Below are positions 1,477-59,929 of a stretch of DNA of 64,000 nucleotides, one piece after another. A program made the translations under genes and the position numbers. The DNA is from Candidatus Omnitrophota bacterium (GTDB lineage: Bacteria > Omnitrophota > Gorgyraeia > Gygaellales > UBA12090). Every line of letters starts with the position of its first letter. The stretch's first letter is position 1. The stretch covers positions 87,819-151,818 of the forward strand of contig JAUSCZ010000023.1 of assembly GCA_030674475.1 (NCBI GenBank), in the 5' to 3' direction. A model generated the notes under the pieces. That model saw only the letters and a list, made by a program, of their open reading frames with translations, did no database searches and was not told where the DNA came from.

Positions 1477-4400
1477 ATGCTCCTCAAGCTTAAAAAGCTA
1501 ATATCCCTTTTTATCTCTTTTTGCCTCATTCTTGAGCAGACTACTTTTGCTCAAAGTATAAACCTGTCGCATTACTTTGCCAATCCCGGAAAACCTATTA
1601 TTCAAAGCGATAAGTTTAGGCCCTTACACCTAAGGTATCTGGGCTATGATAACCTGAGCCAGGACTTTAAGCTACTCTTAGACAGGGGAGATACCAAGAA
1701 GAAAGACCTGGAGAACAAGGCCTACATAGAGGAAAACACCCAAACCCTGCTCAAATACTTCTTCATCGGATTAGCCTTACCCAATGAGAAGTTCTGGGTC
1801 AACCTAAGGCCGGATGCCCCGGATAACATCATAGATGATGACTTGGCCCAGACAGATGTAGGCAAGATACTTCTTGAAGCAGACCTCCAACTTAAGAAAG
1901 ACACCGCCGGCTGGACCTCGCCCCAGACCCCGGAAGGCAAAGAATATTGGGATAAACTCTACCAGAAGGCTGGAGAGCTATTCGGAACCGAGAACATCAC
2001 TATTCCCACCCTCACCCGTCCCTGGATAGTCCCGGATGAAATAATAATCAGGGAAGCCCCGGATAATGCCTATATCTATAAGGCCACCTTGAAAGTGATG
2101 TTAGAGCAGGATTATCTCCAGGGGAATCCGCGCCTCGGGAGCGCGCAAGCAGTTTATAACTTTTCAGACCCCCGCTTGAAAGAGCTCAACGAATATTCCA
2201 CCCAGCTAATCAAAGAAAAAATAATTCCTAAGTTGACCTGTGAGGTGAATACTTCCAAGAGATACGCTCCCCTTAGACAAGTCTATTACTCTTTAATCTT
2301 AGCCCAGAATTTTAAAAAGAAGTTTAGCCAATCAACCGGAGAAAACCCCTATGTCAAGCTGATTGACTCTCGTAACCTCTCTAACCTCACCTCAAAAGGA
2401 CCCTGGGATAAGCGGACCTACTTTAGGGAATACCAGAAATCATTCCAGCAAGGCGAATACAACCTCAAAGCCACCGCATCCACAGTCTACGGTCAGACTA
2501 TCAGAAGCTATATGAGCGGGGGTGTAATAGTGGATATTACCTCTTCCAGTGTTAATATAACTAAGGTAGAGGCGAATAGAGAGTTGAAGCTAATAAGTAG
2601 TAGCGCGCTACTGGGGCCGATTAAGGTTCCTGCGCCCCCTGGATTTGAGCATAATGAAGCAGGCATTCTGGTCCCAGTCCCTAAGAAAAATAATAACGAT
2701 AACATATCCAATCAAGAACCTAAAGGGCATGAGCCTACAGAAGATAAAACAAAGCCGGAAATCATACTTCCTAACAGGGTAGATATTGATGCTGTCAGTG
2801 GTAAAGACCCGACACAAGAGCAATTCCATGATAAGTTTCTCCTGGAAAGTATGTCTGTTAAGGATATTCCTTTATTCTTCAAGGACTATTTAAAATCCTT
2901 GCGCCGCTACCATCTAAGACAAAAAGACAGGGATTCAGCTTATTCTTTGGAGTTGTCCGGGAAAGGAATCAGCCTGCCTGTTGGGTATGAACTCCTTTAT
3001 AAAATATTCGTTTCTGGCCAAGAAGAGGACATCCGGGAAGAAATGAAGCATCTTAGCCTTGAGGAAAGAAAGCAATTTGATCAGGCAGTGAAAGATTTAG
3101 AGAATCTGTTTATCTTGAAAGGAGTATTCGAGAAGTTTAATACAAATAATAAAGAAAAGATACAGCTTCAGCTTCTAAAAATGGCATATGCCTTTTTTAA
3201 GAAGTTAAAACAGGCAGGATTTAATTATTCTGAAGAGTTTGCTGAAAGTATATTGGAGGGATTAGAAGGAAATATTAAATTATGGGGGGCAATATACGAT
3301 GAACTGCAGATTCATTTACGCGTTGAGACTGAAAAGGCCGGACTCTCCCACCCGGAGGAATTATCGCGTTATTATTATCGGGAAAAATTCAAGCCTTATC
3401 TTGATGTTTCTAACCAGCTCCTCTCTTTGAACGTTTATTGGGATGCCTCCCGTAAAGCAAGGCTGTTAGATAACCTTGAGGAGTTGGTGGTTGTGGAGGC
3501 AATAGAGGAATTTTCCTGGGTTAAGGATATATTCAGTCAGGAGCAAAACCCCGAATTAAAGCTAAGATTTAAATTGATTGAGCCTTTCTTTGGTAAGGTA
3601 TCTTATGAGCCTCTTGAGCATTTAGGCCCGCAAGAAGCTTTTGGTCTGGAACTGGAAAAGGATGTCACGGATGAAGTCCGCTCAGGTAAACTTTTCAACA
3701 CTTCTAAGGGTTGGGAGGCTTTAAGAAAATACTTAAAAGAATACCAGCTGGACTACAATAATACTATGCATATCCATATAGATAGAGGCCGGGGGGATAT
3801 TAATCAGAGAAACCAAGAGGTCTTATATCTTGTAACTAGTTTTCTGGAAGGATACCTATTGTCGCTTAGTACTTCTCGCGCTATAGATTACCTGATGTTA
3901 GAAGCAGATGCCCAATATGCTTTAAGGTATGATTACCTCTCATATTTATATCAAACTATGAAACACGACAGAATGATCCAGTTTAATAATATGGGCAACA
4001 CCACCATAGAATTTCGTTTTGCCATGCCGCCGTTGAGGCATTTAGCCTTAAGTGAAAAAGCCAGGATAATTTATATCAAGGACCTGATTACTCTCTTTGC
4101 CGCGTTAAAAGAGATAATAATGCATCCTGAAGATAGGCTATCCTTAAAATATCTTGGTCTTCCGGTGCAAGCGGCTCAATATAAACAAAAGATTAATTTT
4201 AACCATTTAAATAGGATATTAGAAGTAGTATTCAGGGGGCATCCCCAAGCTAAGGAATCGTTCCGGAGATTGATGCTATTCAGCCAGCGCAAGAGTATTT
4301 GTTCTTATCGCAATAGCAGCAATAAGCAAATAGAGGAAAATGAGGCAAAGGCTTCTTTGCGGAAAGAGATAAGTAATTTTTACTATCTGCAAGGGTTAGG

Positions 4401-5478
4401 TCTGCTCTATGTTATTCATAGTGAATCAAAAGAAGGCATATCCTTGAATGTAGATGAAGACATAAAGGAAAAGATAGGGCAAGCAAAAACTCGTAAAAGA
4501 GAATATCCTCTTTACCATGAGGTCGCCATGTATTTACTTCGGACAGTAGCCGATGATTATGAAAATGAAGAAACAGTAAGAGTTATCTTGGGGGAAAAAA
4601 TGCAAGCTGATGAATATATAGTGGCCTTAGACAATGCTAGTACTTTTGTTGTTCCCGCTTTAGATAAAATTGGGAATAAGAGAGACTATTTTCTAACATA
4701 TGGTCTTCCGGCTTTAGTTCAAAGAGTCCATTATAACTATGAGATGTTTGGGCTCGCCTTAAAAGCCGCTACCGCCTTTAAAGATAGGGAAGAACGAAGC
4801 TATTTTCTGAACTACAGCATCCTGTTCCTGTGGCGGATGAGCGAAGGAGATGTAGCTAAGTTTAAGAAATTACTTGAGCTTGTTCAGCAGGGAGCCGTTG
4901 CCTTTGAGCCTGGGGTAGAACGAAACAATTTCCTGGAACAGGGAGTCAATAGGCTGGCCTACGGAATCAATTATAACTATGAGATATTTGCGGAGAGGTT
5001 GCTGAACATAAAGAATAAAGAATCTTCTTCAGCGCTCACTACAGAATTAAACAGAGGCGGCATTGATCTTACCGCACTGCCTATCACTACCCAACCACCC
5101 CTAAATCAGCCTTTGACGGCTAATATCTCTATAGCCAGCTTGGCTTTAAATCTCAATATTAACTTGGATAATGAGTTCAGGCAGATTCAGGATATGCTCA
5201 AGGCCGGGATTATGCCTTCAAGCGAAAGGATAAGGGAGTATGCTTTAACATCTTCATCTTTGCAAAAAGAGGAAGGCTATGCTCAGGAGATAGGTAGAAT
5301 ACTTGGCTGTATTGCGGAGATATTGAGGTTAGAAGAGGACAGGGGAGTGTCTACTGCTTTAGCCTTAAAGGAGATGCTCATTTTGTTTGAGTCGGATAAG
5401 CCCGCGCGGGATGTGCAGTTTGCCTTAAGCAAAATTACCGTTATGCCCAGGGAGCCGGCGAAGTATAGTTCGCAATAG
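1477..5478 (+). CDS. giant protein (1333 aa), paralog 1 of a three-member novel family. Hydrophobic N-terminal leader ending FAQS, conserved ~330-aa N module, long helical variable middle, conserved ~180-aa C module (GGIDLTALPITTQ ... LKAGIMPS ... LGCIAEILRLEE)
   Basis: Long uninterrupted ORF. N and C modules align residue-by-residue with the ORFs at 5517 and 52639 (and 8280 for the C module). ATG sits directly 3' of TATACT, so possibly leaderless or nearly so. Confidence 0.7.
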   Translation: MLLKLKKLISLFISFCLILEQTTFAQSINLSHYFANPGKPIIQSDKFRPLHLRYLGYDNLSQDFKLLLDRGDTKKKDLENKAYIEENTQTLLKYFFIGLALPNEKFWVNLRPDAPDNIIDDDLAQTDVGKILLEADLQLKKDTAGWTSPQTPEGKEYWDKLYQKAGELFGTENITIPTLTRPWIVPDEIIIREAPDNAYIYKATLKVMLEQDYLQGNPRLGSAQAVYNFSDPRLKELNEYSTQLIKEKIIPKLTCEVNTSKRYAPLRQVYYSLILAQNFKKKFSQSTGENPYVKLIDSRNLSNLTSKGPWDKRTYFREYQKSFQQGEYNLKATASTVYGQTIRSYMSGGVIVDITSSSVNITKVEANRELKLISSSALLGPIKVPAPPGFEHNEAGILVPVPKKNNNDNISNQEPKGHEPTEDKTKPEIILPNRVDIDAVSGKDPTQEQFHDKFLLESMSVKDIPLFFKDYLKSLRRYHLRQKDRDSAYSLELSGKGISLPVGYELLYKIFVSGQEEDIREEMKHLSLEERKQFDQAVKDLENLFILKGVFEKFNTNNKEKIQLQLLKMAYAFFKKLKQAGFNYSEEFAESILEGLEGNIKLWGAIYDELQIHLRVETEKAGLSHPEELSRYYYREKFKPYLDVSNQLLSLNVYWDASRKARLLDNLEELVVVEAIEEFSWVKDIFSQEQNPELKLRFKLIEPFFGKVSYEPLEHLGPQEAFGLELEKDVTDEVRSGKLFNTSKGWEALRKYLKEYQLDYNNTMHIHIDRGRGDINQRNQEVLYLVTSFLEGYLLSLSTSRAIDYLMLEADAQYALRYDYLSYLYQTMKHDRMIQFNNMGNTTIEFRFAMPPLRHLALSEKARIIYIKDLITLFAALKEIIMHPEDRLSLKYLGLPVQAAQYKQKINFNHLNRILEVVFRGHPQAKESFRRLMLFSQRKSICSYRNSSNKQIEENEAKASLRKEISNFYYLQGLGLLYVIHSESKEGISLNVDEDIKEKIGQAKTRKREYPLYHEVAMYLLRTVADDYENEETVRVILGEKMQADEYIVALDNASTFVVPALDKIGNKRDYFLTYGLPALVQRVHYNYEMFGLALKAATAFKDREERSYFLNYSILFLWRMSEGDVAKFKKLLELVQQGAVAFEPGVERNNFLEQGVNRLAYGINYNYEIFAERLLNIKNKESSSALTTELNRGGIDLTALPITTQPPLNQPLTANISIASLALNLNINLDNEFRQIQDMLKAGIMPSSERIREYALTSSSLQKEEGYAQEIGRILGCIAEILRLEEDRGVSTALALKEMLILFESDKPARDVQFALSKITVMPREPAKYSSQ

Positions 5479-8279: not shown

Positions 8280-9068
8280 TTGTTAGATAAGTTTGGCGCG
8301 AAGGTGAAAAACATAGTGAAAAATAACAATGAAGAAAAAGTGTCTTTTTCAGGAATAAGTATTTCTATATTTTACGATTTAGTAGATAAATTGAATAAGG
8401 CCAGGCACTACCCGTATTATATTGATTATGGAGCTAAAGTGAATAGTTTTATAAGGGTGATGGATGCGTATATAAAATTATTGTCAGATATTCAAAACCC
8501 GGGAAAAATTGAGGAAGGATGCGCAGAAAGGATGGATGAGTCAAGGAGTGAGCCGGAATTAACCTATTGGTTATTGAAAGAATATAATAAATTGCCTCAA
8601 GAAAAAGAATCTATGAATTCTTCCCCCGTCTTAGCAAGTGAAATCGGTAGAAATATTTTTGCGCCAATTAAGAAAAAAGGCGGTATTGACCTTACCGCCT
8701 TACCCATAACCACCCAATCCCACTTAAATCAGCCTTTGACGGATAATATACCTATAGCAGGCTCGGCCTTAAATCTCAATCGCGCCCTGAGCGATAGTCA
8801 AAGGGTTAATTTAGATAAGGAGCTTCGGGATATTCAGAATATGCTTAAGGCTGGGATTATGCCTTCAGGTGAAAGAATAAAGGAATATGCCTTAGCCTCT
8901 TCGTCTTTGGGGCCGGAAGACCACAACTGGGAAATTGACCGTCTGCTGGGCTGTATTGCTGATGTTTTTAGATTAGAAGAAGAAAAGGCCAAACCCACCC
9001 CGCAAATCTTAAAAGATGTGCTTATTCTGCTGGAATCGGATAACCCCGCCCCGTTACAAATTCTCTGA
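8280..9068 (+). CDS. paralog 2 C-terminal piece carrying the conserved family C module; separated from the middle piece by a second frame change around 8036-8064
   Basis: GGIDLTALPITTQSHLNQPLTDNIPIAG...LKAGIMPSGERIKEYALASSSL...LGCIADVFRLEEE is about 85% DNA-identical to the 3' end of paralog 1. The frame is open back to 8039. Confidence 0.55.
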   Translation: MLDKFGAKVKNIVKNNNEEKVSFSGISISIFYDLVDKLNKARHYPYYIDYGAKVNSFIRVMDAYIKLLSDIQNPGKIEEGCAERMDESRSEPELTYWLLKEYNKLPQEKESMNSSPVLASEIGRNIFAPIKKKGGIDLTALPITTQSHLNQPLTDNIPIAGSALNLNRALSDSQRVNLDKELRDIQNMLKAGIMPSGERIKEYALASSSLGPEDHNWEIDRLLGCIADVFRLEEEKAKPTPQILKDVLILLESDNPAPLQIL

Positions 9069-22583: not shown

Positions 22584-22735
22584 TAAAATTGCCTTTATCG
22601 TACATAACAATTCTTGTGTATATTCTATTGCGCGCAAATTACTTTGTGTCTCGTAATATCATATAAATGAGACACAAATTGGTTTATGAATAATGCGTGA
22701 AACACGAGCCATTTATAGCATAACTCATTATTTAA

Positions 22736-22861: not shown

Positions 22862-22866
22862 ATAGT

Positions 22867-24213: not shown

Positions 24214-24229
24214 TGGCGAAGAAGAACTT

Positions 24230-25474: not shown

Positions 25475-25483
25475 TGTTACGAG

Positions 25484-30600: not shown

Positions 30601-31150
30601 ATTGAAAAAGGTTTACGATCGCTTAAATAAGGACAGTGGCGATCAGCCAGAACGTCCGTTGTTTTTTAAAGATGTGAGTCCGGATGAAGAGGTTGCGGAG
30701 GACCAGAAGTATGTTGATTTTCTGCCGGTATATTCGCTCCAGGCTGTAGCGACAAGCTTTGGTAAGGAAGAGCACGTGGAAATGCTTGGATGGAAGAAAA
30801 TAAAAAATAAACGGCTGAATAAAGACATGTTTATTGCTCAGGTTGTTGGTAAGTCAATGGAGCCGACAATTTTGGATGGTAGTTTTTGTCTTTTCCGCTT
30901 TGAGCGGGGCGGCTCGCGCAATGGTTTGGTGGTGCTTGTCGAATCTCGGTTGGTTACCGATCCTGAAACCAGCCAGAAATTTACAATCAAGCGCTATAAA
31001 AGTGAAAAAGAAACTTTGCCCGATGGCGGGTGGAGGCACAAGCGCATAATACTCTCACCTGATAACAAAGACTTTAAAGATATCACTCTGGAGAATGTGA
31101 GCGGTGATGATTTTAGAATCGTAGCAGAATTTGTAGAGGCATTATCTTAA
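27620..31150 (+). CDS. hsdR: type I restriction enzyme R subunit with a C-terminal LexA/UmuD-like S24 serine peptidase domain fusion
   Basis: SF2 helicase motifs (GSGKS Walker A, VIVDEAHSSQ DEAH box, GFTATP, QTMSRLNR). The C-terminal ~110 aa carry S24 motifs: VVGKSMEPTILDGSFCLF (Ser nucleophile), FTIKRYK (catalytic Lys), RIILSPDNKDF...GDDFRIVAEFVEAL. Confidence 0.85.
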   Translation: MRLRMVSIINEKAFEESIEQSLIDHGGYVKGDPNNFSRDLAIDQAVLFQFIKDTQKNVWDSLTAIHGADVEKKFLYRLNQELDARGMLDCLRRGVTDYGKKIMLAYFKPVSKLNPETQKLFDKNILTVTRQVHYSTKDESSIDMLLSINGLPVATIELKNPFTGQDVDDAKRQYKYDRDERELLFQFKKRALVHFAVDTDVIYMTTRLQGSKTRYLPFNKGYNKGSGNPPNPSGHKTAYLWEVVLVKDSWMDILGRFLHLEVEEKAFDGRKFKIETLIFPRYHQLDSVRKLSSDALANGAGKNYLIQHSAGSGKSNSIAWLAYHLAGLYDKGDKRIFDAVIVITDRIVLDKQLQDTIYQFEHKLGVVEKIDKDSTQLAQALTSGTNIIITTLQKFPFVLDKVGALPRRNYAVIVDEAHSSQGGESAKKMKDVLSALDKTEIVSEKADEDDDIEDEIRESMLKRGPRPNLSFFGFTATPKAKTLEFFGQKGIDGKPQPFHLYSMRQAIEERFIFDVLENYTSYQTFFQLSKKIEDDPNMNKKKAACAIARFLTLHPYNLAQKTEVMIEHFRQVTMKKIGGKAKAMVVTASREHVVRYKHEFDRYLKEKGYKDIKALVAFSGKVLLDGIPPEYTEEGINTYIDKQGQTRYVREKELPGKFATSEYQILLVAEKYQTGYDEPLLHTMYVDKRLDGVKAVQTMSRLNRTCPGKEDTFILDFVNKREDILAAFQPYYEQTQLSDVTDPNKLYDLKTKLDSFRVVYQSDIDAFCVVFFRNKELQTKREHAQLNSIVDVAVERFKVIEKDEHKEDFVNTLGVFVRLYAFLAQIMPFQDIELEKFYAYSRLLLKKLPGPDRGERYHLGDEVALEYYRLQKIADGKIQLQKDSGAAIEPISEAGTKKDKDEYALLSEIINLLNDRFGTDFTEADKLFFDQIEEEMVMDEKLGVQAKTNTMDNFKYGFEDVFIAKLVDRMDQNQDIFNKIMDDKAFAAVVKDYLLKKVYDRLNKDSGDQPERPLFFKDVSPDEEVAEDQKYVDFLPVYSLQAVATSFGKEEHVEMLGWKKIKNKRLNKDMFIAQVVGKSMEPTILDGSFCLFRFERGGSRNGLVVLVESRLVTDPETSQKFTIKRYKSEKETLPDGGWRHKRIILSPDNKDFKDITLENVSGDDFRIVAEFVEALS

Positions 31151-38339: not shown

Positions 38340-38669
38340 ATGGCAACAAGTAATTGCAGAGATTTTGGCATTGAAAACATCAATGCTTTCCGCGTTAATG
38401 AAAATATTCACGATTTTTCAAATTTGATTAAAGATTATAAGCATAGATTAAAAACAACAGCAGAAAAATGTTCACGTTCATATCCTTCAGGAATAGTAGA
38501 ATATGATGAATATTATCCTGCAAAATCAAGGGATATCATCGACCAGATTGACTGTCTTCTTGCCCAGCACTACGGTTTCACCCACGAGGAGTTGGATTTC
38601 ATCATTAACTACGACAACAAATACCGCATGGGCAAGGAACTGGACAATGGGGAGGAGAATGAAAAATGA
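38340..38669 (+). pseudogene. 3'-terminal fragment of a DNA methyltransferase / type IIG-like restriction-modification gene
   Basis: C-terminal block LAQHYGFTHEELDFIINYDNKYRMG is the characteristic tail of N6-adenine MTase/Eco57I-like proteins; no catalytic domain is present upstream. Confidence 0.5.
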
Positions 38670-39700
38670 GCAAAACGATGCGTAAAACTTTTATCTCTGA
38701 AATCAAAGAAATCATAAACCAATCACGCAGAGCGGCCATTCGTAATGTGGACTTTCAACGTGTGTTAATGTATTGGCATATTGGGAAAGGTATATTTGAA
38801 GAAGAACAGCATGGCAAAGAGCGAGCTTACTATGGTGATTATCTTATTAAGAACCTGGCTAAAGAATTGGAACCAGAATATGGAAGTGGTTTCTCAGTAA
38901 GAATTTTGGAAATCAGCCGCCAATTTTATCGTACTTATCCAATTGCGAACGCGCTGCGTTCGCAATTGAACTGGAGTCAGTACCGGCTTTTGTTACGCAT
39001 TGGGAATCAGGATAAAAGAGAATACTATCTGCTCGAAGCAATTAATAATAGCTGGACTGGCAGGGAATTGGAGAGACAGATAAACTCAGGTCTGTATGAA
39101 CGATTGTTATTAAGCAACAATAAAGAAGCGGTTTTATCTGTAGCCCGCAAAGAGAAGATGCCTGAAGAACCGCAGGAAATCATCAAAGACCCAATGGTGT
39201 TAGAATTCCTTGGTTTGGAGCGTAAAGCAAAATACTATGAAAGAGATCTCGAAACCGCGATAATCAATCATCTTCAAATCTTCTTGCTGGAATTGGGAAA
39301 TGGTTTTTCTTTTGTAGCAAGACAAAAGCGGATACTCTTAGAAGATGATGAGTTTTTTGTGGACTTGGTGTTTTACAACCGCTTGCTGCGGTGTTTTGTC
39401 ATTATTGAGATCAAAGCGCAAAAACTCACGCATCAGGATTTAGGACAGCTGCAAATGTATGTGAATTACTACGACCGCACTGAAAAGTTACCAAAAGAAA
39501 ATCCGACTATCGGAATTTTACTTTGCGCTGATAAAAATAATACAGCGGTTAAATTTGCCCTCCCGGAAGATAATAAGACGATTTTGACGAGTCAATATCA
39601 GTTGTATCTGCCCACAGAAAAGCAGTTAATCAGTGAAGTAAAAAAAGACTTGGAAAGATACCGCATGGGCAGCCAACAGGATAACGGGGACGAGAAATGA
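38666..39700 (+). CDS. DUF1016 (YhcG-like) PD-(D/E)xK nuclease-family protein
   Basis: N-terminal YhcG_N-like block (NVDFQRVLMYWHIGKGIFEEEQHGKERAYYGDYLIKNLAKELEPEYGSGFSVRILEISRQFYRTYP). C-terminal PD-(D/E)xK core (VDLVFYNRLLRCFVIIEIKAQK). Confidence 0.7.
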   Translation: MSKTMRKTFISEIKEIINQSRRAAIRNVDFQRVLMYWHIGKGIFEEEQHGKERAYYGDYLIKNLAKELEPEYGSGFSVRILEISRQFYRTYPIANALRSQLNWSQYRLLLRIGNQDKREYYLLEAINNSWTGRELERQINSGLYERLLLSNNKEAVLSVARKEKMPEEPQEIIKDPMVLEFLGLERKAKYYERDLETAIINHLQIFLLELGNGFSFVARQKRILLEDDEFFVDLVFYNRLLRCFVIIEIKAQKLTHQDLGQLQMYVNYYDRTEKLPKENPTIGILLCADKNNTAVKFALPEDNKTILTSQYQLYLPTEKQLISEVKKDLERYRMGSQQDNGDEK

Positions 39701-52638: not shown

Positions 52639-55600
52639 ATGCCTTTACGCCTAACCAAATTCCTATCTCTGTTTCTCTCTTTCTGCCTTATCCTTGAGCA
52701 GAGCGTCTTTGCTCAAAGCATAGACCTTTCCCATTACTTTGCCAACTCTGGCAAACCTATTATCCAGAGCGATAAATTTCGGCCCTTACACCTAAGGTAT
52801 CTAGGCTATGATAACTTGAGTCAGGACTTTAAGCTACTTTTAGATAAGGGAGATACTAAGAAGGAGGACTTAGAGAACAAAGCCTACATAGAAGAAAACA
52901 CCCAAACCCTGCTCAAATACTTCTTCATCGGATTAAGCCTGCCTAATGATAAGTTTTGGGTTAACCTAAGGCCGGATGCCTCGGAGAATATCATAGATGA
53001 CGACTTAGCCAAGACAGATATCGGCAGGATTATGCTGGAAGCTGATGTCCAGCTAAAGAAGGATACTGCAAGCTATACCTCACCCCAGGCCAAAGAAGGC
53101 CGGGAATACTGGGATAAGCTGTATAAGAAAGCAGAAGAGCTATTCGGAACCGAAAACATCACCATCCCCACCCTAACTAGGCCATGGATTGTCCCGGACG
53201 AGATTATTTTAAGAGAATCTCCGGATAACAGCGCCTACATTTACAAAGCTACCCTCAAGGTGATGTTGGAAGAGGACTACCTAAAAACCAGCAACCAGCC
53301 CGTCCTGGCAAAGCGAAGCGGGCCAGGGAAACCAGTAACCAGTAACCAGGTATATTCTTTTAGTGACCCCAGGCTAAAAGAGCTTAATCAATATTCTACC
53401 CAGCTAATCAAGGAAACCATAATCCCCAAGCTCACCCAGGAGATCAACTCATCCAGGAGATACGCTCCCCTAAGACAAGTCTATTACTCTCTCATCTTAG
53501 CCCAGCACTTTAAACGGAAGTTTGCCAAGCAGCCCTCGGGGCAGGCAGGAGAAAATCCCTATGTTAAGCTGATTGACTCCTGTAACCTTACCAACCTAAC
53601 CTCCAAAGAACCCTGGGATAAACTTACCTGCTTCCAAGGCTATCAGAAATCCTTTCAGCAGGGAGAATACAATATTCAAGAGCCGGTGTATACGCCTACG
53701 GGGCAGGCAATAAGAAGCTATTTTAGTGGGGGGCAGCTTCTAACAAATATTCTCAGAGTAACAACGGTAACCCCGGGGTTTGGACCACCTTCTATTTCAG
53801 GCAGCATCCATTTGAAAAAAATTGACTATTCTGTTTCGCCGGTTGCCAAAGGGGACGTAAGCCTTTTGACTGGGTTAAGGTCAAGCTCAGCGATTGAGGA
53901 AAGAAATAATGCGTCTTTATTATCTATGGGAAACTCGACCTTGAAAGGAAGGCCAACGAGAATAATGCTTTCTTTCTTTTCTAACGTTCGTGATAAATCT
54001 AAGCTTGACAATCCATTGGGAGTCGCAGTCTTAGGTGGTACTTTGAAACAGCAACTTAAGGATACTGTCCATATTGTTATGGCACATCATCTGATTGATG
54101 GCGGAGTAGAAGGAATCATCGAAAAAATAAAGATTGAGCATCCGGAAATATTAGGATTATCTCTCGGCTTTGGTTCTTTGCAACAACTGATTACTGTTAT
54201 GCAATATATTCGTTCATTGCCAGCCGCGGAAAGACCCATTGTTGCTTTAGGTAATGTTGTAGCGACTTATAACACAGAATTTTTTCTGAAGCAATACCCG
54301 GAGGTTTTTATTTGTGCAGGGCAAGGTGAAATGGCAATAGTCGATCTCGTCAAATATCGCAGAGGCGAAATAAAGAAAAATGAAATACATGATGTTGTGT
54401 ATATGAATGATGGTCAGATTATTGCAAATCCAAGGAGTCAGTCATTTCTCGTAGATATGGGAACGCCTATGACAGACTTTTTGCCCGATGTAGTAAAATC
54501 CGGGGGTGTTGTTTATATGGAGACCTCGCGCGGCTGTCCTTTTAATTGTACGATATGCGCGCGCAGACCTTTTTTGGGCATAGGTTGGAAAGGCAGGAAT
54601 TTAGATAATATTATTGGCGATATGGAGAAGGCGGCTAACTTGGGCGTCAAATTTATTAACTTTGTTGATGAAGATCTATTTGCTGGCGGTATGAAAAGGG
54701 TGATTCGTTTTGCTCAAATGATTCATGAGGCAAGAAAAGCAGGACGGATTCCTGATGATCTTATTTTTGGTACATCGGTAAGCGTAAGGAATATTTACAG
54801 AATAAATGATTCATTAGAAAATAATCTAAAAAGAAAGCAAGCCTTGGAATTATTGAAAGAGGCCGGCCTTACAGTTCTTTTCATAGGGATTGAATCTGGT
54901 TCGCCAAAGCAACTCGAGCGCTATGGTAAGGCTGCAACCATCAAAGAGAACGAGGAAGCCATTAGGATTATTGAGGATTGTGGAATATGGACTATCCCGG
55001 GTTTTATTATGCTGGATCCGCTTGTGACAATAGAGGAGATCAGGGAGAATATTGATTTTTTAAGACGAACAGGGATGGATGCCCGGATTACGTATCCTTT
55101 AAAGACATATATCCCAATGATAGGAAGCTCTTACACTCAAAAATTAATTGAAGAAGGTTTAGTTTATTCAGTCTCCTATATTCCTGATCGGTTAGCATAC
55201 GAATATTCATTTAGAGAAAAAAGAGTCGCAGATATCTTAAAAAGAATAAAAGATTGGGAAGAAAGCCAAGCAATGTTTTTCTGGGATCTAAAAATTATTT
55301 TTCGTTCCTCGCGTTTTGGTGAATTAAGCCGGGATAAACAAGAATTGGTTAGGACATTAGTTGATAAACAAACCAAGATTTTATTAGATTATTTGGATGA
55401 AATGGTTAATCTAAGCTTGAGCGAAATAGAACAAAAAGAAGTTTTTCAGAGAATATCTTTTAAGTTTGGCGTCCGCTTGATTAACGATATGTTGGAGGCC
55501 TTGCAGTACGTGGAAAATGGTTATTTGCCGCTTGGAGACAAAGAATTCAGAAGTATTATACAGAAAAGTATTATTCGGGAGATTTTGCGGTTATACTTTA

Positions 55601-56247
55601 CACAAAAACAATTTTCGATGGAGGAAGTAAGGCGTATTATCTCTGAGGAATTCCACTATAAATTTAAAGAAGATATTTTAAAGGAAATTTTTGCTTTGTT
55701 TATTAAGGAAGAACGCATCAAACAAATAGACGATAAGACGTTCTGCTTACACGAAAAGTTTTTTGTCTACAGGAATATTCCGTGGCCAGATTTGCCTAGG
55801 CCAGCTAAAGTTATAGTTGGCATTGATGATTTGGCAAGCTCGCCGTTGATTCCTCAGAAAGTTAAATTCCCGGGTGGCATCGACTTACGTTTTCTCCCTA
55901 TAGTTACCCAGGCCATAAGCAACCTAAGTTTGAACGCTTCCCGTATTCCTTTAAGCAAGTTGGATAGCATTAACCTTAATCAGGAATGGCGCCAGATACA
56001 AAAGATGGTTGAAGCCGGCATTACGCCATCAGCGGAGAGGATTAAGGAGTATATCCAGCTATCTTATCTTAATAAAGGTGAACCTAATGATATGCAGAAA
56101 GTCATTTCTTGCATTGCGGATATATTAAGATCTGAAGAAGAGCGCTGCGTTTCTACTGAGCCAACGCTAAAAGATATTCTGGTTGTGCTTGAGTCAGGAC
56201 GGTCGGCTCAGGAACTAAAAGCTGTTTTTACCGGTAGTCAGTCCTAA
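52639..56247 (+). CDS. giant paralog 3 (1203 aa from ATG 52639; ORF track begins at 52588 inside the inserted element). Family N module + B12-binding-like domain + radical-SAM core + family C module
   Basis: N-terminal 330 aa align with paralogs 1 and 2. Middle has a Rossmann-like B12-binding region, then radical SAM CxxxCxxC (CPFNCTIC) and FINFVDEDLF. C-terminus has the family C module (GGIDLRFLPIVTQ ... VEAGITPSAERIKEY ... ISCIADILRSEEER). Confidence 0.7.
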   Translation: MPLRLTKFLSLFLSFCLILEQSVFAQSIDLSHYFANSGKPIIQSDKFRPLHLRYLGYDNLSQDFKLLLDKGDTKKEDLENKAYIEENTQTLLKYFFIGLSLPNDKFWVNLRPDASENIIDDDLAKTDIGRIMLEADVQLKKDTASYTSPQAKEGREYWDKLYKKAEELFGTENITIPTLTRPWIVPDEIILRESPDNSAYIYKATLKVMLEEDYLKTSNQPVLAKRSGPGKPVTSNQVYSFSDPRLKELNQYSTQLIKETIIPKLTQEINSSRRYAPLRQVYYSLILAQHFKRKFAKQPSGQAGENPYVKLIDSCNLTNLTSKEPWDKLTCFQGYQKSFQQGEYNIQEPVYTPTGQAIRSYFSGGQLLTNILRVTTVTPGFGPPSISGSIHLKKIDYSVSPVAKGDVSLLTGLRSSSAIEERNNASLLSMGNSTLKGRPTRIMLSFFSNVRDKSKLDNPLGVAVLGGTLKQQLKDTVHIVMAHHLIDGGVEGIIEKIKIEHPEILGLSLGFGSLQQLITVMQYIRSLPAAERPIVALGNVVATYNTEFFLKQYPEVFICAGQGEMAIVDLVKYRRGEIKKNEIHDVVYMNDGQIIANPRSQSFLVDMGTPMTDFLPDVVKSGGVVYMETSRGCPFNCTICARRPFLGIGWKGRNLDNIIGDMEKAANLGVKFINFVDEDLFAGGMKRVIRFAQMIHEARKAGRIPDDLIFGTSVSVRNIYRINDSLENNLKRKQALELLKEAGLTVLFIGIESGSPKQLERYGKAATIKENEEAIRIIEDCGIWTIPGFIMLDPLVTIEEIRENIDFLRRTGMDARITYPLKTYIPMIGSSYTQKLIEEGLVYSVSYIPDRLAYEYSFREKRVADILKRIKDWEESQAMFFWDLKIIFRSSRFGELSRDKQELVRTLVDKQTKILLDYLDEMVNLSLSEIEQKEVFQRISFKFGVRLINDMLEALQYVENGYLPLGDKEFRSIIQKSIIREILRLYFTQKQFSMEEVRRIISEEFHYKFKEDILKEIFALFIKEERIKQIDDKTFCLHEKFFVYRNIPWPDLPRPAKVIVGIDDLASSPLIPQKVKFPGGIDLRFLPIVTQAISNLSLNASRIPLSKLDSINLNQEWRQIQKMVEAGITPSAERIKEYIQLSYLNKGEPNDMQKVISCIADILRSEEERCVSTEPTLKDILVVLESGRSAQELKAVFTGSQS

Positions 56248-56329
56248 CCAAAAAGTGGCATTTCCCGCCTAGTTTATTTTTTTTCCGCCTTCTCTTCCAT
56301 TATTCAATTTATCATTAGTAACTGTTAAG

Positions 56330-56400
56330 CCAAACCTACCCCGCTAACCTTAAAAGATGTGCTTATCCGGCTGGAAAATGACCCATCCTTATTTGACTAA
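56330..56400 (+). pseudogene. orphan 3'-end remnant of another giant-family paralog
   Basis: cctaccccgctaaccttaaaagatgtgcttatccggctggaaaatgac parallels 8994-9045 of paralog 2 (…TPQILKDVLILLESDNP); an in-frame stop interrupts it. Confidence 0.5.
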
Positions 56401-56537
56401 AGAGGGCTGGAAGAAGCTGGGGGGAGATAAAAGAGGGGGAGGAGATTGCCTGCCTATCCTGCCATCGGCTTCCCGTCTCGCCTTTGGCTCGCCGAGGCGG
56501 ACGCCGCGAGGCGAGCAGTCAAGCGGTATTAGGAGAT

Positions 56538-56801
56538 TTATCTTCTACGGTAGGCGTCTTCGCGGGTGTCAACGCCGTCAATAATTATATTAAGGCCTTC
56601 AATATAGAAACAAATACGATACTTTCCGACTCTGAATCTATGTGTAGCTGGCGGAAGATTAACCAGGGGTTTGGCAAAATGCAGGGGATTGCGGGAGGAA
56701 ATATATAGGCCGATTTTCTCGATAATTCTGTTTTGCAGTTGGTGGGAGAGCCTCTTGAAGTCTCGTTCTCCGGCAGGGGTAAATTCAAGACTTTCAATCA
56801 T
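56538..56801 (-). CDS. RelE/ParE-family type II toxin
   Basis: 87 aa; LEFTPAGERDFKRL ... HRFRVGKYRICFYI ... VDTREDAY matches the RelE/ParE fold signature. Confidence 0.75.
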   Translation of the reverse strand: MIESLEFTPAGERDFKRLSHQLQNRIIEKIGLYISSRNPLHFAKPLVNLPPATHRFRVGKYRICFYIEGLNIIIDGVDTREDAYRRR

Positions 56802-56809
56802 CTTGCTGG

Positions 56810-57262
56810 TCAGGATAATCCTAGCTCATGCTTGATCTTCTCAAAAGGAACCAGCCCTAACTTTTGGGCTTCAACAATGCCCTTTTTTAGTTTTAGCGCT
56901 AATTTAGGGTTGACCGGCAGGTGGGTTTCGATGGCGTCAATAAGCCAGCCGACAGGATTGTGGTGGACATATTCTTTGGCTGGAACGTTTTCTTCAAATT
57001 TCGTATCAAAGGCACAAAGCATATCCCAAAGCGAATATGTGTCAAATATAAAATACTTAGGAGAGCCGCCCTTATCTGTTATTACTCCGGCTTTGAAATT
57101 TTTAGGAGAAGATAATCCGGCATTTTTAAGCTCTTTGGCAGAAACAGCTGAAAATTTTGTCAGCTTCTCTAGCTTCACTAATTTTTTCCCCAAAGATATA
57201 CTGGACAATGATTTTGCTTTCATTTCTTTGCTCCTCAATAAAGAGGATAACATATCCAGCAA
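56810..57262 (-). CDS. Phd/YefM-like antitoxin (start codon uncertain; internal Met codons possible)
   Basis: Directly upstream of and co-oriented with the RelE gene (8-nt gap); the central region resembles the Phd/YefM fold. Confidence 0.5.
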   Translation of the reverse strand: MLDMLSSLLRSKEMKAKSLSSISLGKKLVKLEKLTKFSAVSAKELKNAGLSSPKNFKAGVITDKGGSPKYFIFDTYSLWDMLCAFDTKFEENVPAKEYVHHNPVGWLIDAIETHLPVNPKLALKLKKGIVEAQKLGLVPFEKIKHELGLS

Positions 57263-57329
57263 TTCAAGTCAAGGCAATTTCCAGGATTTGTCTTGATACT
57301 GAGTGATTACTTTAAGATTATATAGTATC

Positions 57330-57360
57330 TTGACAAGTCATATATAATATGTTATATAAT
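57330..57360 (+). promoter_or_regulatory. sigma70-like promoter (TTGACA-N17-TATATA/TATAAT) positioned so that transcription would start at or within about 3 nt of the ATG of the HTH-Fic gene (leaderless mRNA candidate)
   Basis: ttgaca at 57330-57335; tatataat at 57353-57360; ATG at 57365; no SD. Confidence 0.4.
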
Positions 57361-57364
57361 AATT

Positions 57365-58291
57365 ATGCTGAATAGCAATAATTATATTGGCAAAATCAGG
57401 GAAATGCTGGAAAAAACCGGCTGGGGGCAAGCTCAATTTGCCCAGGAGCTGGGCGTAACTTTTGCCACAGTTAACCGCTGGCTCAACGGCCACCACAGGC
57501 CGCATTTGAGCCAGATACGCCAGATTGAGAGGTTACATAAAAACATTATCGGAATCATCCCGGTAACCAAGCAAGAAATGGAGCAGATTATTTTACAGTT
57601 GAAGGCCAAGATAAAGCAGTATCCGGATATTAAGAAAATCTTGCGGGATGATACAACATCCGAGGAGTTTCTGTTGGAGTTGACCTATAATTCCGACGCC
57701 ATTGAGGGGAATACATTAACTAAGAAAGAGACGGAAACAGTTATCTTCAATAACGCCTCTATCAAGGATAAAAGCTTAATTGAACATCTGGAGGCGGTAA
57801 ATCATGCGGTGATCCTGAAGGATATTTTTTCGGGGAAGATTGGCTGCCCGGTTGATGAAGAGCTGATAAAAAAGACGCATAAGATATTGATGCAGGGCAT
57901 CCGGGATGACGCCGGCGAATACGCCAGCCATCAGAGGGCAATCCGGGGGGTGGATTTGATCCTGCCGTCCCCCGATGATATTGCCGGGGAAATGAAGTTA
58001 TTTTTAAGCAAAGTTAATGACTTCCCGCCTCGACCGATTGAGCATATTGCCAGGATGCACGCGGATTTTGAGGCGATTCATCCTTTCGGCGACGGCAATG
58101 GCCGCGTAGGACGGCTGATTATGATTGTTCAGTTAATTCATTGTGGTTTTGCTCCCTGTATCATTAGCGTTAATGAAAAAGCCCGGTATTATGAATCCCT
58201 AGAATATGTCCAAAAAAAGTCTGAAACGCATCTTGTGTGTTTCCTGGCTGAAGCGGTATTGAAGGGCTATGAGTTAATTAGTTCTCACTGA
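57365..58291 (+). CDS. Fic-family protein with N-terminal Xre-type HTH
   Basis: HTH (GQAQFAQELGVTFATVNRWLNG) and Fic motif HPFGDGNGRVGR. Confidence 0.8.
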   Translation: MLNSNNYIGKIREMLEKTGWGQAQFAQELGVTFATVNRWLNGHHRPHLSQIRQIERLHKNIIGIIPVTKQEMEQIILQLKAKIKQYPDIKKILRDDTTSEEFLLELTYNSDAIEGNTLTKKETETVIFNNASIKDKSLIEHLEAVNHAVILKDIFSGKIGCPVDEELIKKTHKILMQGIRDDAGEYASHQRAIRGVDLILPSPDDIAGEMKLFLSKVNDFPPRPIEHIARMHADFEAIHPFGDGNGRVGRLIMIVQLIHCGFAPCIISVNEKARYYESLEYVQKKSETHLVCFLAEAVLKGYELISSH

Positions 58292-58450
58292 AAAACTCTC
58301 GTTTTTCAGTGAGAACTAATTCCAAAGGGGCTCACGCCCCTATGGCGTTCGTTCCGACTCCGTCGGAACTCACTGTTACCCCTTAAGGGGGTTGCCTGCA
58401 ACCCCCTTAAAATCCCCCAGTAGTTACCACTTTTTCAGTGGTAACTAATT
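58279..58450 (+). other. cluster of five consecutive perfect stem-loops bounded by direct repeats TTTTTCAGTGRKAACTAATT (58302-58321 and 58431-58450); candidate structured RNA or REP/MITE-like insertion
   Basis: Five stems read directly: a 17-bp stem covering the Fic stop; aggggc-tcac-gcccct; gttccgac-tcc-gtcggaac; ttaagggggttg-cctg-caacccccttaa; agttaccact-ttttc-agtggtaact. Confidence 0.5.
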
Positions 58451-58469
58451 GGCAAGAGATATAAATGAT

Positions 58470-59171
58470 ATGGTTAAGACCCTGGTCTTTATCCACGGCT
58501 GGGCCAGCGCGCCGGAGATCTGGCAGAGGCAGAGGGAATATTTTGCCAAAGATTATGAGGTTGTCCTGCCGGATATAAGTCCGGCCCGGGATATTCAAGA
58601 AGCGGCAGGCCTGCTCAAGGATGCAATTAAAGACAGGAAGGATTTTGTCCTGATTGGCTGGTCTCTGGGCTGGATGGTGATTTTAGAAGCGCTCAAGAGT
58701 TTATCCTTAAAGCCTAAGGCCGTGGTGGCGGTAAATTCTACGCCTAATTTTTGCTCTGACGAATATCTGGAGACAGGTTTTACCCAAACCCATCTGAATA
58801 AGATGATAAGGGATTGTAAGCGCGATCCCCAAAAGACCAGGGAGAATTTTTATAAAGGACTCCTTACAGAGAGCGGAAAGAGCATGGCCAGCAGTTTTCA
58901 GTTTAAAAACATAGATTATAGCAAGCTGATTTATGGCTTGTCCATGCTTAAGGATGCTAATTACCGGGATTTTATCCGGGCTATAGATATCCCGGCGCTG
59001 ATTATTACCGGGGCCAGGGATACTATTTGTGTTCCTCAGGTATCCGAATATATGCGTCAGAGGATTAAGCAGTCGGAATTAAAGGTTTTTGACTGTGGGC
59101 ACTTGCCGTTTCTGGATAAGGCTGAGGAATTTAATTTCGCGATAGCTGATTTTATTAGAAAGTTAAAATGA
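58470..59171 (+). CDS. bioH: alpha/beta hydrolase, BioH-like pimeloyl-ACP methyl ester esterase (ORF track starts at TTG 58449)
   Basis: VFIHGW N-terminal motif, nucleophile elbow GWSLG, C-terminal His in CGHLPF; adjacent and coupled to bioC. Confidence 0.55.
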   Translation: MVKTLVFIHGWASAPEIWQRQREYFAKDYEVVLPDISPARDIQEAAGLLKDAIKDRKDFVLIGWSLGWMVILEALKSLSLKPKAVVAVNSTPNFCSDEYLETGFTQTHLNKMIRDCKRDPQKTRENFYKGLLTESGKSMASSFQFKNIDYSKLIYGLSMLKDANYRDFIRAIDIPALIITGARDTICVPQVSEYMRQRIKQSELKVFDCGHLPFLDKAEEFNFAIADFIRKLK

Positions 59172-59929
59172 TTTCCACTCAAAAAATAAGAGATAATTTT
59201 TCCCGCAGCGCGATACATTATGAGAAATACGCGGATATTCAGGCCAAGCTGGCCCAAGAACTACTGGAAGAGGTAATCGGAGCAGGATATACAGCGAATG
59301 AGGTCTTGGACATTGGATGCGGAACCGGATGGCTATTGGGTGAGCTAAAGAGATTTCTGCCCCAAAGCCGGCTCTGGGGTTTGGATATCAGCCTGGCAAT
59401 GGCGCGTAAGACAAAAGCAAAGATTGAAGAGGTGTTGACCGCGGATGCCGCCTTTTTGCCGTTTAAGGATAAGGCCTTGGACCTGGTTTTATCCAATGCC
59501 GTTTATCAATGGGTGCCGGATTTGGAGGCGGCCTTTAAAGAGGCGCGTAGGATTCTTAAATCCGGCGGCTGTTTTATGTTTAATTGCTTTGGGGCCAAGA
59601 CCTTGCGGGAACTGCGCCAGTGTTTTGGGATAGAGGAAACCTTTCTTCCTCGGGCGGATTTTATAAGAGAGGCGTTGGAGAGGGCAGGGTTTTCCTGCCC
59701 GGAGTTTAAGGTCAGGGAGTGCAACCGGCATTTTGATAATTTAGCCGATATCTTAAGCTGGCTGAAATATATCGGGGTAAACCGGATTAATCAGCATCAG
59801 GGGTTTTTAACCCCGTCCCGGCTGGCTAAGGCCGACCATTTCTATCGCAGTAACTTTCGCGGTAACGGCCAGGTCTATGCCACCTTTGAGGTCATCAGCG
59901 TAAAAGCAATAAAAGCAGTTGATAGTTGA
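59168..59929 (+). CDS. bioC: malonyl-ACP O-methyltransferase
   Basis: SAM-binding motif LDIGCGTGW, about 250 aa, N-terminal YEKYADIQ typical of BioC; the stop codon lies inside element copy C. Confidence 0.6.
   Translation: MISTQKIRDNFSRSAIHYEKYADIQAKLAQELLEEVIGAGYTANEVLDIGCGTGWLLGELKRFLPQSRLWGLDISLAMARKTKAKIEEVLTADAAFLPFKDKALDLVLSNAVYQWVPDLEAAFKEARRILKSGGCFMFNCFGAKTLRELRQCFGIEETFLPRADFIREALERAGFSCPEFKVRECNRHFDNLADILSWLKYIGVNRINQHQGFLTPSRLAKADHFYRSNFRGNGQVYATFEVISVKAIKAVDS

What the first reader, a model, noticed from the sequence alone, without database searches (positions are those of the whole stretch)
56330..56400. Orphan 3' end of another giant-family paralog sits about 90 bp downstream of paralog 3, a cassette-exchange scar
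About 70 nt (cctaccccgctaaccttaaaagatgtgcttatccggctggaaaatgac...) parallel the last codons of paralog 2 (…TPQILKDVLILLESDNP) but are interrupted by a stop. The same pattern recurs in two other systems in this window: the hsdM 3' remnant at 22736-22861, and the shared tail of the MTase fragment and DUF1016 gene (14 identical nt ataccgcatgggca at 38622 and 39658). This suggests that new modules are swapped in by recombination within short conserved 3' sequences, leaving the displaced 3' end behind.
Basis: seen in the sequence. Interest (0 to 1): 0.6.

Follow-up and report, generated by a model that had tools for sequence, protein, structure and literature searches.

The report
Gene-tail fragment hitch-hiked with toxin cassette
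The 72-base orphan gene end is real, but comparison with a related genome indicates it arrived as the end piece of a roughly 955-base insertion carrying a toxin-antitoxin gene pair, so it is an ordinary footprint of sloppy DNA insertion and not a scar of gene-module swapping at this spot.

Summary
Observation confirmed. Window 56329-56376 matches the 3' end of paralog 2 (8988-9035) at 43/48 nt (blastn E=7e-13; z=25 against shuffles). In frame it reads AKPTPLTLKDVLIRLENDPSLFD*, the last 24 codons of the family's C-terminal domain.

The "cassette-exchange scar" reading is not supported here. A syntenic contig from a related Omnitrophota genome (L006) has the same p3-type C-domain, stop codon and 79-nt 3' spacer. 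It then runs straight into the Fic promoter and Fic gene. Relative to L006, the window carries one 955-bp extra segment (56327-57281): relic, 12 nt, then a RelE/ParE-type toxin-antitoxin operon.

The same operon (85-90% nt) lies next to the 3' end of other family genes in at least three other, non-syntenic contexts, always with the same right-hand boundary.

Best reading: the operon was inserted here and dragged along the last 72 nt of its former upstream neighbour, a p2-type gene.

Module swapping does occur in this family. Central regions differ completely between syntenic genes, with the breakpoint at the start of the C-domain, and this leaves no scar.

Modest interest.

The parts
52639..56247 (+). 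Paralog 3. Signal peptide, then conserved N-domain, then a centre with B12-binding and radical SAM domains, then conserved C-domain (55873-56232). The listed ORF starts at 52588; the probable start is M18 at 52639.
56248..56326 (+). Native 3' spacer of the p3-type gene. It is orthologous to L006 3062-3136 and ends ..AGTAACTGTT.
56327..57281 (.). 955-bp segment present in the window and absent from the syntenic site in L006, where only GGG stands. It contains the relic, a flank and the toxin-antitoxin operon.
56329..56400 (+). The finding: a non-coding relic of the last 24 codons plus stop of a p2-type family gene. It forms the left end of the inserted segment.
56413..56454 (.). Flank shared at 92.9% with L014 10531-10571. 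It travels with the operon in two contexts.
56455..56514 (.). GC-rich 60-nt stretch with an imperfect hairpin. L014 has a short hairpin here instead.
56538..56801 (-). 87-aa RelE/ParE-superfamily toxin gene.
   Evidence: Pfam ParE_toxin 21.7 bits, just under the 23-bit cut-off. PDB sequence search: Rv2866 (3g5o_B) E=4.8e-5 and RelE 9g12_A.
56810..57262 (-). Partner gene upstream of the toxin, the presumed antitoxin. 150 aa from the TTG start; public databases aa from an internal ATG. It matches no Pfam or NCBIfam family.
57244..57272 (-). Predicted sigma-70-type promoter (TTGACT, 17 nt, TATCCT) at the very edge of the conserved module. The module ends ..AAGTCAAGGCAA at 57277 in all contexts.
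57282..58291 (+). Fic upstream region (promoter-like TTGACA..TATAAT) and HTH-Fic gene (57365-58291). Orthologous to L006 3140-4154.
8988..9035 (+). Closest relative of the relic: the 3' end of paralog 2 (5517-9068). Paralog 2 is itself broken by two frameshifts. Its position upstream of nuoA is conserved in five other contigs.
1477..5478 (+). Paralog 1, in tandem with paralog 2. Its C-domain plus 23 nt downstream (5037-5501) is 89.9% identical to the end of the 2012-aa gene that precedes the same operon in L014.
It lies between an inserted Fic gene (21492-22583) and a KAP NTPase gene (22867-24213). The KAP ribosome-binding site lies inside the remnant.
38621..38663 (+). Tail of ORF 38340-38669. 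It is repeated at 39658-39700 as the tail of the DUF1016/YhcG gene (36/43 nt).

Best explanation
The 72-nt stretch is a decaying, non-coding relic of the last 24 codons of a paralog-2-type member of an Omnitrophota-specific protein family. Members have a signal peptide, a conserved N-domain, an unrelated variable centre and a conserved C-domain.

The relic is not what remains of a gene that paralog 3 displaced. It is the left end of a discrete 955-bp piece of DNA (56327-57281). The rest of that piece is a complete RelE/ParE-type toxin-antitoxin operon, running from its -35 box to about 20 nt past the toxin stop, plus about 100 nt of flank.

Shown:
(a) The piece is absent, to within 3 nt, from the same locus in a related genome.
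(b) The operon recurs next to the 3' ends of other family genes in unrelated contexts, with the same right-hand boundary.
(c) The relic is closest to this genome's own paralog-2 tail.

Inferred: the operon once sat 12 nt downstream of a p2-type gene. A DNA fragment whose left break fell 72 nt inside that gene was then inserted, by illegitimate (non-homologous or microhomology) joining, between the paralog 3 spacer and the Fic promoter. The relic has no function of its own and is drifting.
For: Empty site. L006 matches window 55897-56326 (83.6% over the last 226 nt, covering the stop and the whole spacer). It resumes at about 57282/57317-58278 (86.9%) and continues into the next gene, 58446-59229 (86.2%). 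Only GGG in L006 stands in place of window 56327-57281.

Module boundaries.
- L014 and ten further contigs of the same locus share window 56413-56454 and 56515-57277 at 90-93%.
- L065-L072 share 56536-57274 at 85.6%.
- In every case similarity stops at ..AAGTCAAGGYWA, which is window 57277.
- L014 has no other homology to the 64-kb window apart from family domains.

Recurrent neighbourhood. The operon faces the 3' end of a family gene in four contexts:
- the window;
- L014, a 2012-aa gene with a p1-type tail, 107 nt away;
- L066, a 1356-aa member of a distant subtype, 39 nt away;
- L073, a 3269-aa gene ending 9 codons after the GGIDL motif, 15 nt away. This gene matched neither family profile.

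Most homologues of the partner gene sit on contigs of about 1 kb, as expected of a sequence found in several contexts.

Relic origin. It matches this genome's p2 tail at 43/48 nt, against 38-41/48 for p2-type tails elsewhere. It shares GATGTGCTTAT with p2 and L015 only.

Census. Among 77 complete C-domain ends (many redundant), orphan tail pieces occur only in the window and L013, and a C-domain-start relic occurs in the L014-type locus. All of these abut toxin-antitoxin genes. A fourth orphan, L011, does not: its called neighbours are a transglutaminase/TPR gene and an aminotransferase gene.

Independent assembly L001 reproduces the junctions.
Against: - Only one empty-site comparator (L006) was found. 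It is a 4.9-kb metagenome contig, about 13-17% diverged.
- Polarity (insertion here, or precise loss in L006) is inferred from parsimony, not shown.
- No donor locus was found with a complete p2-type gene followed after 12 nt by this flank and operon.
- No transposase, integrase, terminal inverted repeats or clear target duplication explain the mobility. AAGCCAA at 56327-56333 and AAGGCAA at 57271-57277 form an imperfect 7-mer repeat, which my rough estimate puts at about 0.1 probability by chance.
- The sharp right boundary could partly reflect selection on the -35 box and not an element end.
- The 84-nt spacer in L014 shows weak, collinear resemblance to the p3-type spacer (p=0.04 against L006, not significant against the window). 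If real, the spacer-relic-operon composite would be older than assumed.
Confidence: 0.65

Rival explanations
1. Same discrete unit, opposite polarity. The arrangement spacer, relic, operon, Fic is ancestral, and the L006 lineage lost the 955-bp unit by precise excision or deletion.
For: The indel alone does not give direction. A weak collinear resemblance of the L014 spacer to the p3-type spacer could mean the composite predates the split between the window and L014 copies.
Against: A deletion would have to hit both ends of the unit to within a few nucleotides. Loss of a toxin-antitoxin pair is usually counter-selected (established knowledge of addiction modules). The operon occurs in at least three other contexts, which shows it moves. 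Even if true, the relic still belongs to the operon unit and not to a gene displaced by paralog 3.
Confidence: 0.15
2. A p2-type gene followed by the operon once occupied this locus. An incoming fragment carrying paralog 3 replaced its body, using one homologous crossover upstream and one illegitimate join (homology-facilitated illegitimate recombination). The last 72 nt of the old gene were left behind.
For: This mechanism is the accepted explanation for orphan 3' pieces in Rhs, CDI and T6SS effector loci (PMC5361080). Central regions and N-domains of this family do differ between syntenic genes. L013 shows a gene, a MNT/HepT pair and then a relic tail 75% identical to the gene's own tail, which fits displacement.
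Against: The incoming fragment would have had to end within about 3 nt of the point where L006-type and resident sequences regain homology. L006 has no unaccounted spacer bases, and the window has no duplicated Fic-upstream bases. The p3-type C-domain, stop and spacer are at orthologous identity (80-93%) with L006, contiguous with Fic there.
Confidence: 0.08
3. Decay of a tandem paralog. Paralog 3 was followed by a full p2-type gene, as paralog 1 is followed by paralog 2, and a deletion removed all but its last 72 nt.
For: Tandem arrays exist: p1-p2 here, and L005, L045 and L046. Family members decay often. Frameshifted or internally deleted genes occur in p2, L012, L015, L017, L042, L043 and L067.
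Against: Two independent deletions, one here and one in L006, would need the same left end to within 3 nt. The L006 deletion would also have to end exactly at the operon boundary. No trace of an N-domain or centre lies between 56248 and 56328.
Confidence: 0.06
4. The p2 tail (8988-9035) and the relic (56329-56376) are attL/attR-like direct repeats of a 47-kb island integrated into the 3' end of paralog 2.
For: They are 48-nt direct repeats at 90% identity in the same orientation, 47.3 kb apart.
Against: The interval holds the nuoA-N complex I operon, acetyl-CoA synthetase, PFOR, 4-alpha-glucanotransferase, biotin synthase and aminotransferases. It has no integrase. The p2-nuoA adjacency is conserved in five other contigs.
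Confidence: 0.01

Closest known systems
C-terminal displacement in Rhs, CDI and T6SS effector-immunity loci, producing orphan 3' modules by homology-facilitated illegitimate recombination (PMC5361080 and references therein)
   Same: A multi-copy family with conserved regions, module diversity, and orphan 3' gene pieces lying just downstream of an intact gene.
   Different: In those systems the 5' part is constant, the 3' toxin tip is variable, and orphans keep immunity genes at the site of the displaced gene. Here the 3' C-domain is conserved and the centre is variable. The orphan is 72 nt of the conserved tail. The empty-site comparison places it inside an inserted toxin-antitoxin segment and not at the site of a displaced gene.
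Chromosomal type II toxin-antitoxin operons of the RelE/ParE superfamily as horizontally mobile two-gene cassettes (general knowledge of the field)
   Same: A small toxin (87 aa) with RelE/ParE similarity, a partner gene 8 nt upstream in the same operon, patchy distribution and several genomic contexts.
   Different: The partner protein matches no known antitoxin family. The operon is repeatedly found facing the 3' end of one particular gene family. This copy carries a piece of such a gene.
Integrative elements that duplicate the 3' end of their target gene (tRNA, tmRNA and protein-gene att sites)
   Same: A copy of a gene's 3' end lies as a direct repeat some distance from the intact gene end.
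   Different: There is no integrase. The segment between the repeats is core genome. The relic is not adjacent to the gene it resembles.
Integron gene cassettes, which often carry toxin-antitoxin pairs
   Same: A promoter-proximal unit of about 1 kb found in different contexts. GTTRRRY-like heptamers sit at the left junction (GTTAAGC in the window, GTTGGGC at the empty site).
   Different: There is no attC-type hairpin in the relic or flank (z=0.3-0.4). There is no matching core site at the right junction, no integron integrase in the window, and the unit carries its own promoter.

Membership tests
Omnitrophota N-domain/C-domain modular protein family (no Pfam or NCBIfam name) | Sequence match to the conserved C-terminal domain | tested here: met
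   The relic matches profile positions 93-110 of 121 (9.9 bits, too short to be significant alone). It also matches p2-type tails in 8 loci at 79-90% nt.
Omnitrophota N-domain/C-domain modular protein family (no Pfam or NCBIfam name) | Complete gene: signal peptide, N-domain, centre and full C-domain in one frame | tested here: not met
   Only the last 24 codons are present. An in-frame TAA lies immediately upstream. No N-domain or centre lies in 56248-56328. It is a relic, not a gene.
RelE/ParE type II toxin-antitoxin system (for the adjoining operon) | Small toxin with RelE/ParE-superfamily sequence signature | tested here: inconclusive
   Pfam ParE_toxin E=3e-4, 21.7 bits against a cut-off of 23. 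PDB sequence search: Rv2866 3g5o_B E=4.8e-5 and RelE 9g12_A E=0.03. No NCBIfam hit.
RelE/ParE type II toxin-antitoxin system (for the adjoining operon) | Antitoxin gene immediately upstream in the same operon, with a recognisable DNA-binding antitoxin fold | tested here: inconclusive
   The gene order and 8-nt spacing fit. The 137/150-aa partner matches no Pfam or NCBIfam family. Its structure was not modelled.
RelE/ParE type II toxin-antitoxin system (for the adjoining operon) | Toxicity neutralised by the partner | not testable with these tools
   This needs expression experiments.
Rhs/CDI/T6SS-type C-terminal displacement arrays | Constant 5' region with a variable 3' toxin tip, and orphans that retain immunity genes | tested here: not met
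   Family members share only the N- and C-domains, and the centres are unrelated. The orphan is conserved-tail sequence with no immunity-like ORF.
Rhs/CDI/T6SS-type C-terminal displacement arrays | The orphan is the leftover of the gene formerly at that locus | tested here: not met
   Syntenic L006 joins the p3-type spacer directly to Fic. The relic lies inside the 955-bp indel with the toxin-antitoxin operon.
Integron gene cassette | attC hairpin, core sites at both junctions and an integron integrase nearby | tested here: not met
   Folding z-scores are 0.3-0.4 for the relic region. A GTTRRRY motif occurs at the left junction only. No integrase was found among the window ORFs of at least 100 aa that were scanned.
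Integrative island with att duplication of a gene 3' end | Integrase and accessory cargo between the direct repeats | tested here: not met
   The interval 9069-56328 contains the nuo operon and central metabolism genes, with no integrase. The p2-nuoA synteny is conserved.

The most novel reading that the evidence does not exclude
The toxin-antitoxin operon spreads preferentially between the 3' flanks of this multi-copy gene family. It does so because it carries pieces of family-gene tails, such as this relic, which act as portable homology arms. The paralog family would then serve as a network of landing pads, and the relics (window, L013, L014-type, truncated C-domain in L073) would be by-products of homology-facilitated illegitimate recombination. 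Operon insertions would in turn drive truncation and turnover of the family genes.
Probability: 0.15. Interest if true: 0.55.

Novelty: new member of a known kind. Interest (0 to 1): 0.3.

Why it matters
The result corrects a tempting inference. A gene-end fragment lying just after an intact paralog looks like a displacement scar. One syntenic comparison shows instead that it travelled with a neighbouring selfish cassette.

It also gives a dated, nucleotide-resolved example of how toxin-antitoxin operons move in an uncultured phylum. They move as minimal promoter-to-stop units with variable, progressively trimmed flanks.

Finally, it shows that in this Omnitrophota family the real module exchange concerns the N-domain and centre. 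The breakpoint lies at the start of the C-domain, and the C-domain and downstream DNA stay with the locus.

The repeated adjacency of one operon to the 3' ends of family genes is the only element a specialist might find unexpected. It is not yet tested against a proper background.

Tried and rejected
1. 47-kb island bounded by the p2 tail and the relic. Rejected: the interval is core genome with no integrase.

2. Integron-like or attC-like site. Rejected: no hairpin and no second core site.

3. Transposon or MITE ends. No terminal inverted repeats are conserved across contexts. The 11-nt pair 56441-56451 / 57272-57282 is not kept in L014. The imperfect 7-mer AAGCCAA/AAGGCAA at the insert ends is not significant.

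4. Known RNA in the region. None found in Rfam.

5. Extension of the relic upstream into 56248-56328. That stretch is instead orthologous to the p3-type spacer of L006.

6. A decayed copy of the relic in the 84-nt L014 spacer. Not significant (p=0.09 and 0.55).

7. Exact-sequence look-ups of paralog 3 and the toxin. Not on record. The Fic look-up returned only a contig identical to the window.

8. A general census for orphan tails downstream of family genes. They are rare: the window and L013 among 77 ends. Leaving a displaced 3' end is therefore not a routine outcome in this family.

10. Pfam and NCBIfam scans. Neither names the N-domain, the C-domain, or the centres of paralogs 1 and 2.

Full report
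**1. The observation**

The intergenic stretch after paralog 3 (stop at 56245-56247) contains a 48-nt segment, 56329-56376. It matches the 3' end of paralog 2 (8988-9035) at 43/48 positions without gaps.
- It is the only significant hit of 56248-56537 in the whole window (E=7e-13).
- It scores 25 standard deviations above shuffled controls.
- The 3' ends of paralogs 1 and 3 do not match at nucleotide level.

In frame, the segment and the 24 nt after it read AKPTPLTLKDVLIRLENDPSLFD*. This parallels paralog 2, AKPTPQILKDVLILLESDNPAPLQIL*. An in-frame TAA lies directly upstream, and similarity to p2-type genes stops sharply there. An independent Logan contig (L001) is identical over 55114-58349.

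**2. The gene family**

Paralogs 1 (1477-5478), 2 (5517-9068, broken by two frameshifts) and 3 (52639-56247) share three parts:
- a signal peptide;
- an N-domain of about 370 aa;
- a C-domain of about 120 aa that starts GGIDLxxLPIxTQ.

Their centres are unrelated. The centre of paralog 3 is a B12-binding radical SAM enzyme, and the other two match no Pfam family. Homologues are confined to Candidatus Omnitrophota MAGs. Genes range from 1.8 to 9.5 kb and often lie in tandem. Many are frameshifted or internally deleted. AlphaFold models of both conserved domains (pLDDT 76-78) have no PDB fold match.

**3. The decisive comparison**

Contig L006 is binned as Methanosarcinales but is clearly Omnitrophota-like. 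It is syntenic with the window.
- Its family gene has a p3-type C-domain.
- Its stop codon and the following 79 nt match window 56101-56326 at 83.6%.
- It then continues directly into the Fic promoter and HTH-Fic gene (86.9% to 57317-58278) and the next gene (86.2%).

Junction alignments show L006 ..AGCTGTT-GGG-CAGAATTTT.. against window ..AACTGTT-[56327..57281]-CAGGATTTG... So the window carries one extra 955-bp segment. That segment begins with the relic. It continues with 12 nt, a 42-nt flank, a GC-rich 60-mer, and an operon on the minus strand. The operon encodes a 150/137-aa protein and an 87-aa RelE/ParE-superfamily toxin.

**4. The operon is a discrete, mobile unit**

The same operon occurs in other settings.
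- In L014, and in ten further contigs of the same locus, it lies downstream of a 2012-aa family gene whose C-domain is 90% identical to that of paralog 1. It shares window 56413-56454 and 56515-57277 at 90-93%.
- Nothing else in L014 is homologous to the window apart from family domains.
- In L065-L072 it lies 39 nt from the stop of a 1356-aa family member of a distant subtype, next to spoVG, sharing 56536-57274 at 85.6%.
- In L073 a more distant copy lies 15 nt from the stop of a 3269-aa gene that ends 9 codons after a GGIDL motif. That gene matched neither family profile.

In the three contexts that share nucleotide similarity (the window, L014 and L066), similarity ends at ..AAGTCAAGGYWA (window 57277). 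This is just outside a predicted -35 box and 4 nt from the right end of the L006 indel. Most homologues of the partner gene sit on contigs of about 1 kb.

**5. Interpretation**

The relic and the operon form one indel unit. The simplest history has three steps:
1. The operon stood 12 nt downstream of a p2-type gene.
2. A fragment whose left break lay 72 nt inside that gene was inserted between the paralog 3 spacer and the Fic promoter by illegitimate joining.
3. The relic has since drifted. It shows 5 changes in 48 nt (2 synonymous, 3 not), with stronger divergence in the last codons.

The relic is closer to this genome's own p2 tail (43/48) than to p2-type tails elsewhere (38-41/48). This suggests a donor in the same lineage.

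Polarity is inferred, not shown. A precise loss in L006 is the main alternative, and it would still tie the relic to the operon.

**6.

Three arguments apply.
- Replacement of a resident p2-type gene by an incoming paralog 3 fragment would require that fragment to end within about 3 nt of the point where the two lineages regain homology. L006 has no unaccounted spacer bases, and the window has no duplicated Fic-upstream bases.
- Decay of a tandem paralog would require two deletions with the same left end.
- Crossing-over within a conserved 3' sequence cannot leave a displaced copy.

Module exchange in the family is nevertheless real. Identity between L006 and the window is random upstream of about 55880 and is 73-93% from the start of the C-domain onward, apart from one indel region near 56060-56080. 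L014 matches paralog 1 only from 19 nt before GGIDL. The centre, and at least part of the N-domain, is what is swapped. The C-domain and downstream DNA stay put, and no scar results.

**7. How general are such relics?**

Among 77 complete C-domain ends (many redundant), orphan tails were found only in two places:
- the window;
- L013, where a gene is followed by a MNT/HepT pair and then a relic 75% identical to the gene's own tail.

A relic of a C-domain start lies beside the operon in the L014-type locus, and a stand-alone 85-codon fragment lies in L011. The first three abut toxin-antitoxin genes. L011 does not: its called neighbours are a transglutaminase/TPR gene and an aminotransferase gene.

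Toxin-antitoxin-like genes also directly follow family genes in several other loci:
- L047: MazE/PIN;
- the L022 group: DUF6036 nucleotidyltransferase;
- L042: a gene I judged HEPN-like by eye, with no Pfam match.

I did not test this against a genomic background.

**8.

- The hsdM remnant (22745-22861) is real at protein level (z=15). It lies between an inserted Fic gene and a KAP NTPase gene, whose ribosome-binding site it contains.
- The DUF1016/YhcG gene and the preceding 109-aa ORF end in a shared 43-nt tail (36/43, z=12).

Both could be either displaced ends or hitch-hiked flanks. No comparator was available for either.

**9. Comparison with known systems, and verdict**

The closest named phenomenon is C-terminal displacement in Rhs, CDI and T6SS loci through homology-facilitated illegitimate recombination (PMC5361080). 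This case fails its defining features: a variable 3' tip, retained immunity genes, and an orphan at the site of the displaced gene.

It is better described as an ordinary footprint of illegitimate insertion of a RelE/ParE-type cassette. That makes it a new instance of a known kind of event, in a poorly known phylum. Interest is modest. The one lead worth following is the repeated association of this operon with the 3' ends of the family genes.

Noticed in passing
window 58285-58446: An insertion of about 165 bp relative to syntenic L006, flanked by TAATT on both sides. It is built of four or five near-perfect hairpins and replaces the last codons of the Fic gene (..ELISSH* here, ..ELIGKRYK* in L006). 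It is single-copy in the window and in all fetched loci, with no Rfam family. It looks MITE- or REP-like.
   Followed up: partly
window 6370-6376 and about 8030-8060: Paralog 2 is split into three frames. The first frameshift is one extra C in a C7 run, where paralogs 1 and 3 have GCTCCCCT. It could be a pseudogene, a slippage-prone tract or a sequencing error. Frameshifted or centre-deleted members are frequent elsewhere (L012, L015, L017, L042, L043, L067).
   Followed up: partly
window 52639-56247: Paralog 3 places a B12-binding radical SAM enzyme domain behind a Sec-type signal peptide, between two conserved domains with no known fold relatives. Other members carry HEAT, phosphoglucomutase or enolase-N domains. 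The family's function, and why cytoplasmic-type enzymes carry a signal peptide, is unexplained.
   Followed up: partly
window 19411-31150: A type I restriction-modification operon is interrupted by extra genes. The order is hsdM, Fic, hsdM 3' remnant (22745-22861), KAP NTPase, hsdS, M78 peptidase, DUF4411, then hsdR carrying a C-terminal S24 peptidase domain.
   Followed up: partly
window 38340-39700: The 109-aa ORF 38340-38669 ends ..HYGFTHEELDFIINYDNKYRMGKELDNGEENEK*. It overlaps the start of a DUF1016/YhcG nuclease gene whose last 14 codons repeat that tail (43-nt direct repeat, z=12). The DUF1016 gene seems to have been inserted into the tail of the preceding gene.
   Followed up: partly
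L014 11385-11590 (and L054-L064): On the promoter side of the operon lies a relic encoding an intein C-terminal motif (VYDIEVEGTHNFVPQGIVAHNT). It is followed by the first 20 codons of a family C-domain (GGIDFTALPITLQSPLNQPL). This would be the remains of an intein-containing family gene.
   Followed up: no
L073 1204-1260: A 3269-aa gene ends ..VGGIDLSGLNLSYVN*, 9 codons after a GGIDL motif and 15 nt from the stop of the toxin. It looks as if the operon truncated a family-type C-domain, but the gene matched neither family profile. The other side of the operon has a weak N-domain match (14.9 bits), possibly the start of the next family gene.
   Followed up: partly
L066 2081-6151 and L067 1420-2806: The same family gene next to the operon is full-length (1356 aa) in one groundwater sample. 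In another sample it is reduced to N-domain plus C-domain, with the centre deleted.
   Followed up: no
L011 3017-3268: A stand-alone 85-codon C-domain fragment lies between two minus-strand genes, with no N-domain nearby. It is an orphan family relic in another Omnitrophota genome.
   Followed up: partly
window 56455-56514 and L014 10572-10589: Between the shared flank and the operon, the window has a GC-rich 60-mer with an imperfect hairpin (GCTCGCC..GGCGAGC). L014 has a short CCTGCC..GGCAGG hairpin in the same place. This is a variable terminator-like element inside an otherwise 90% identical module.
   Followed up: no
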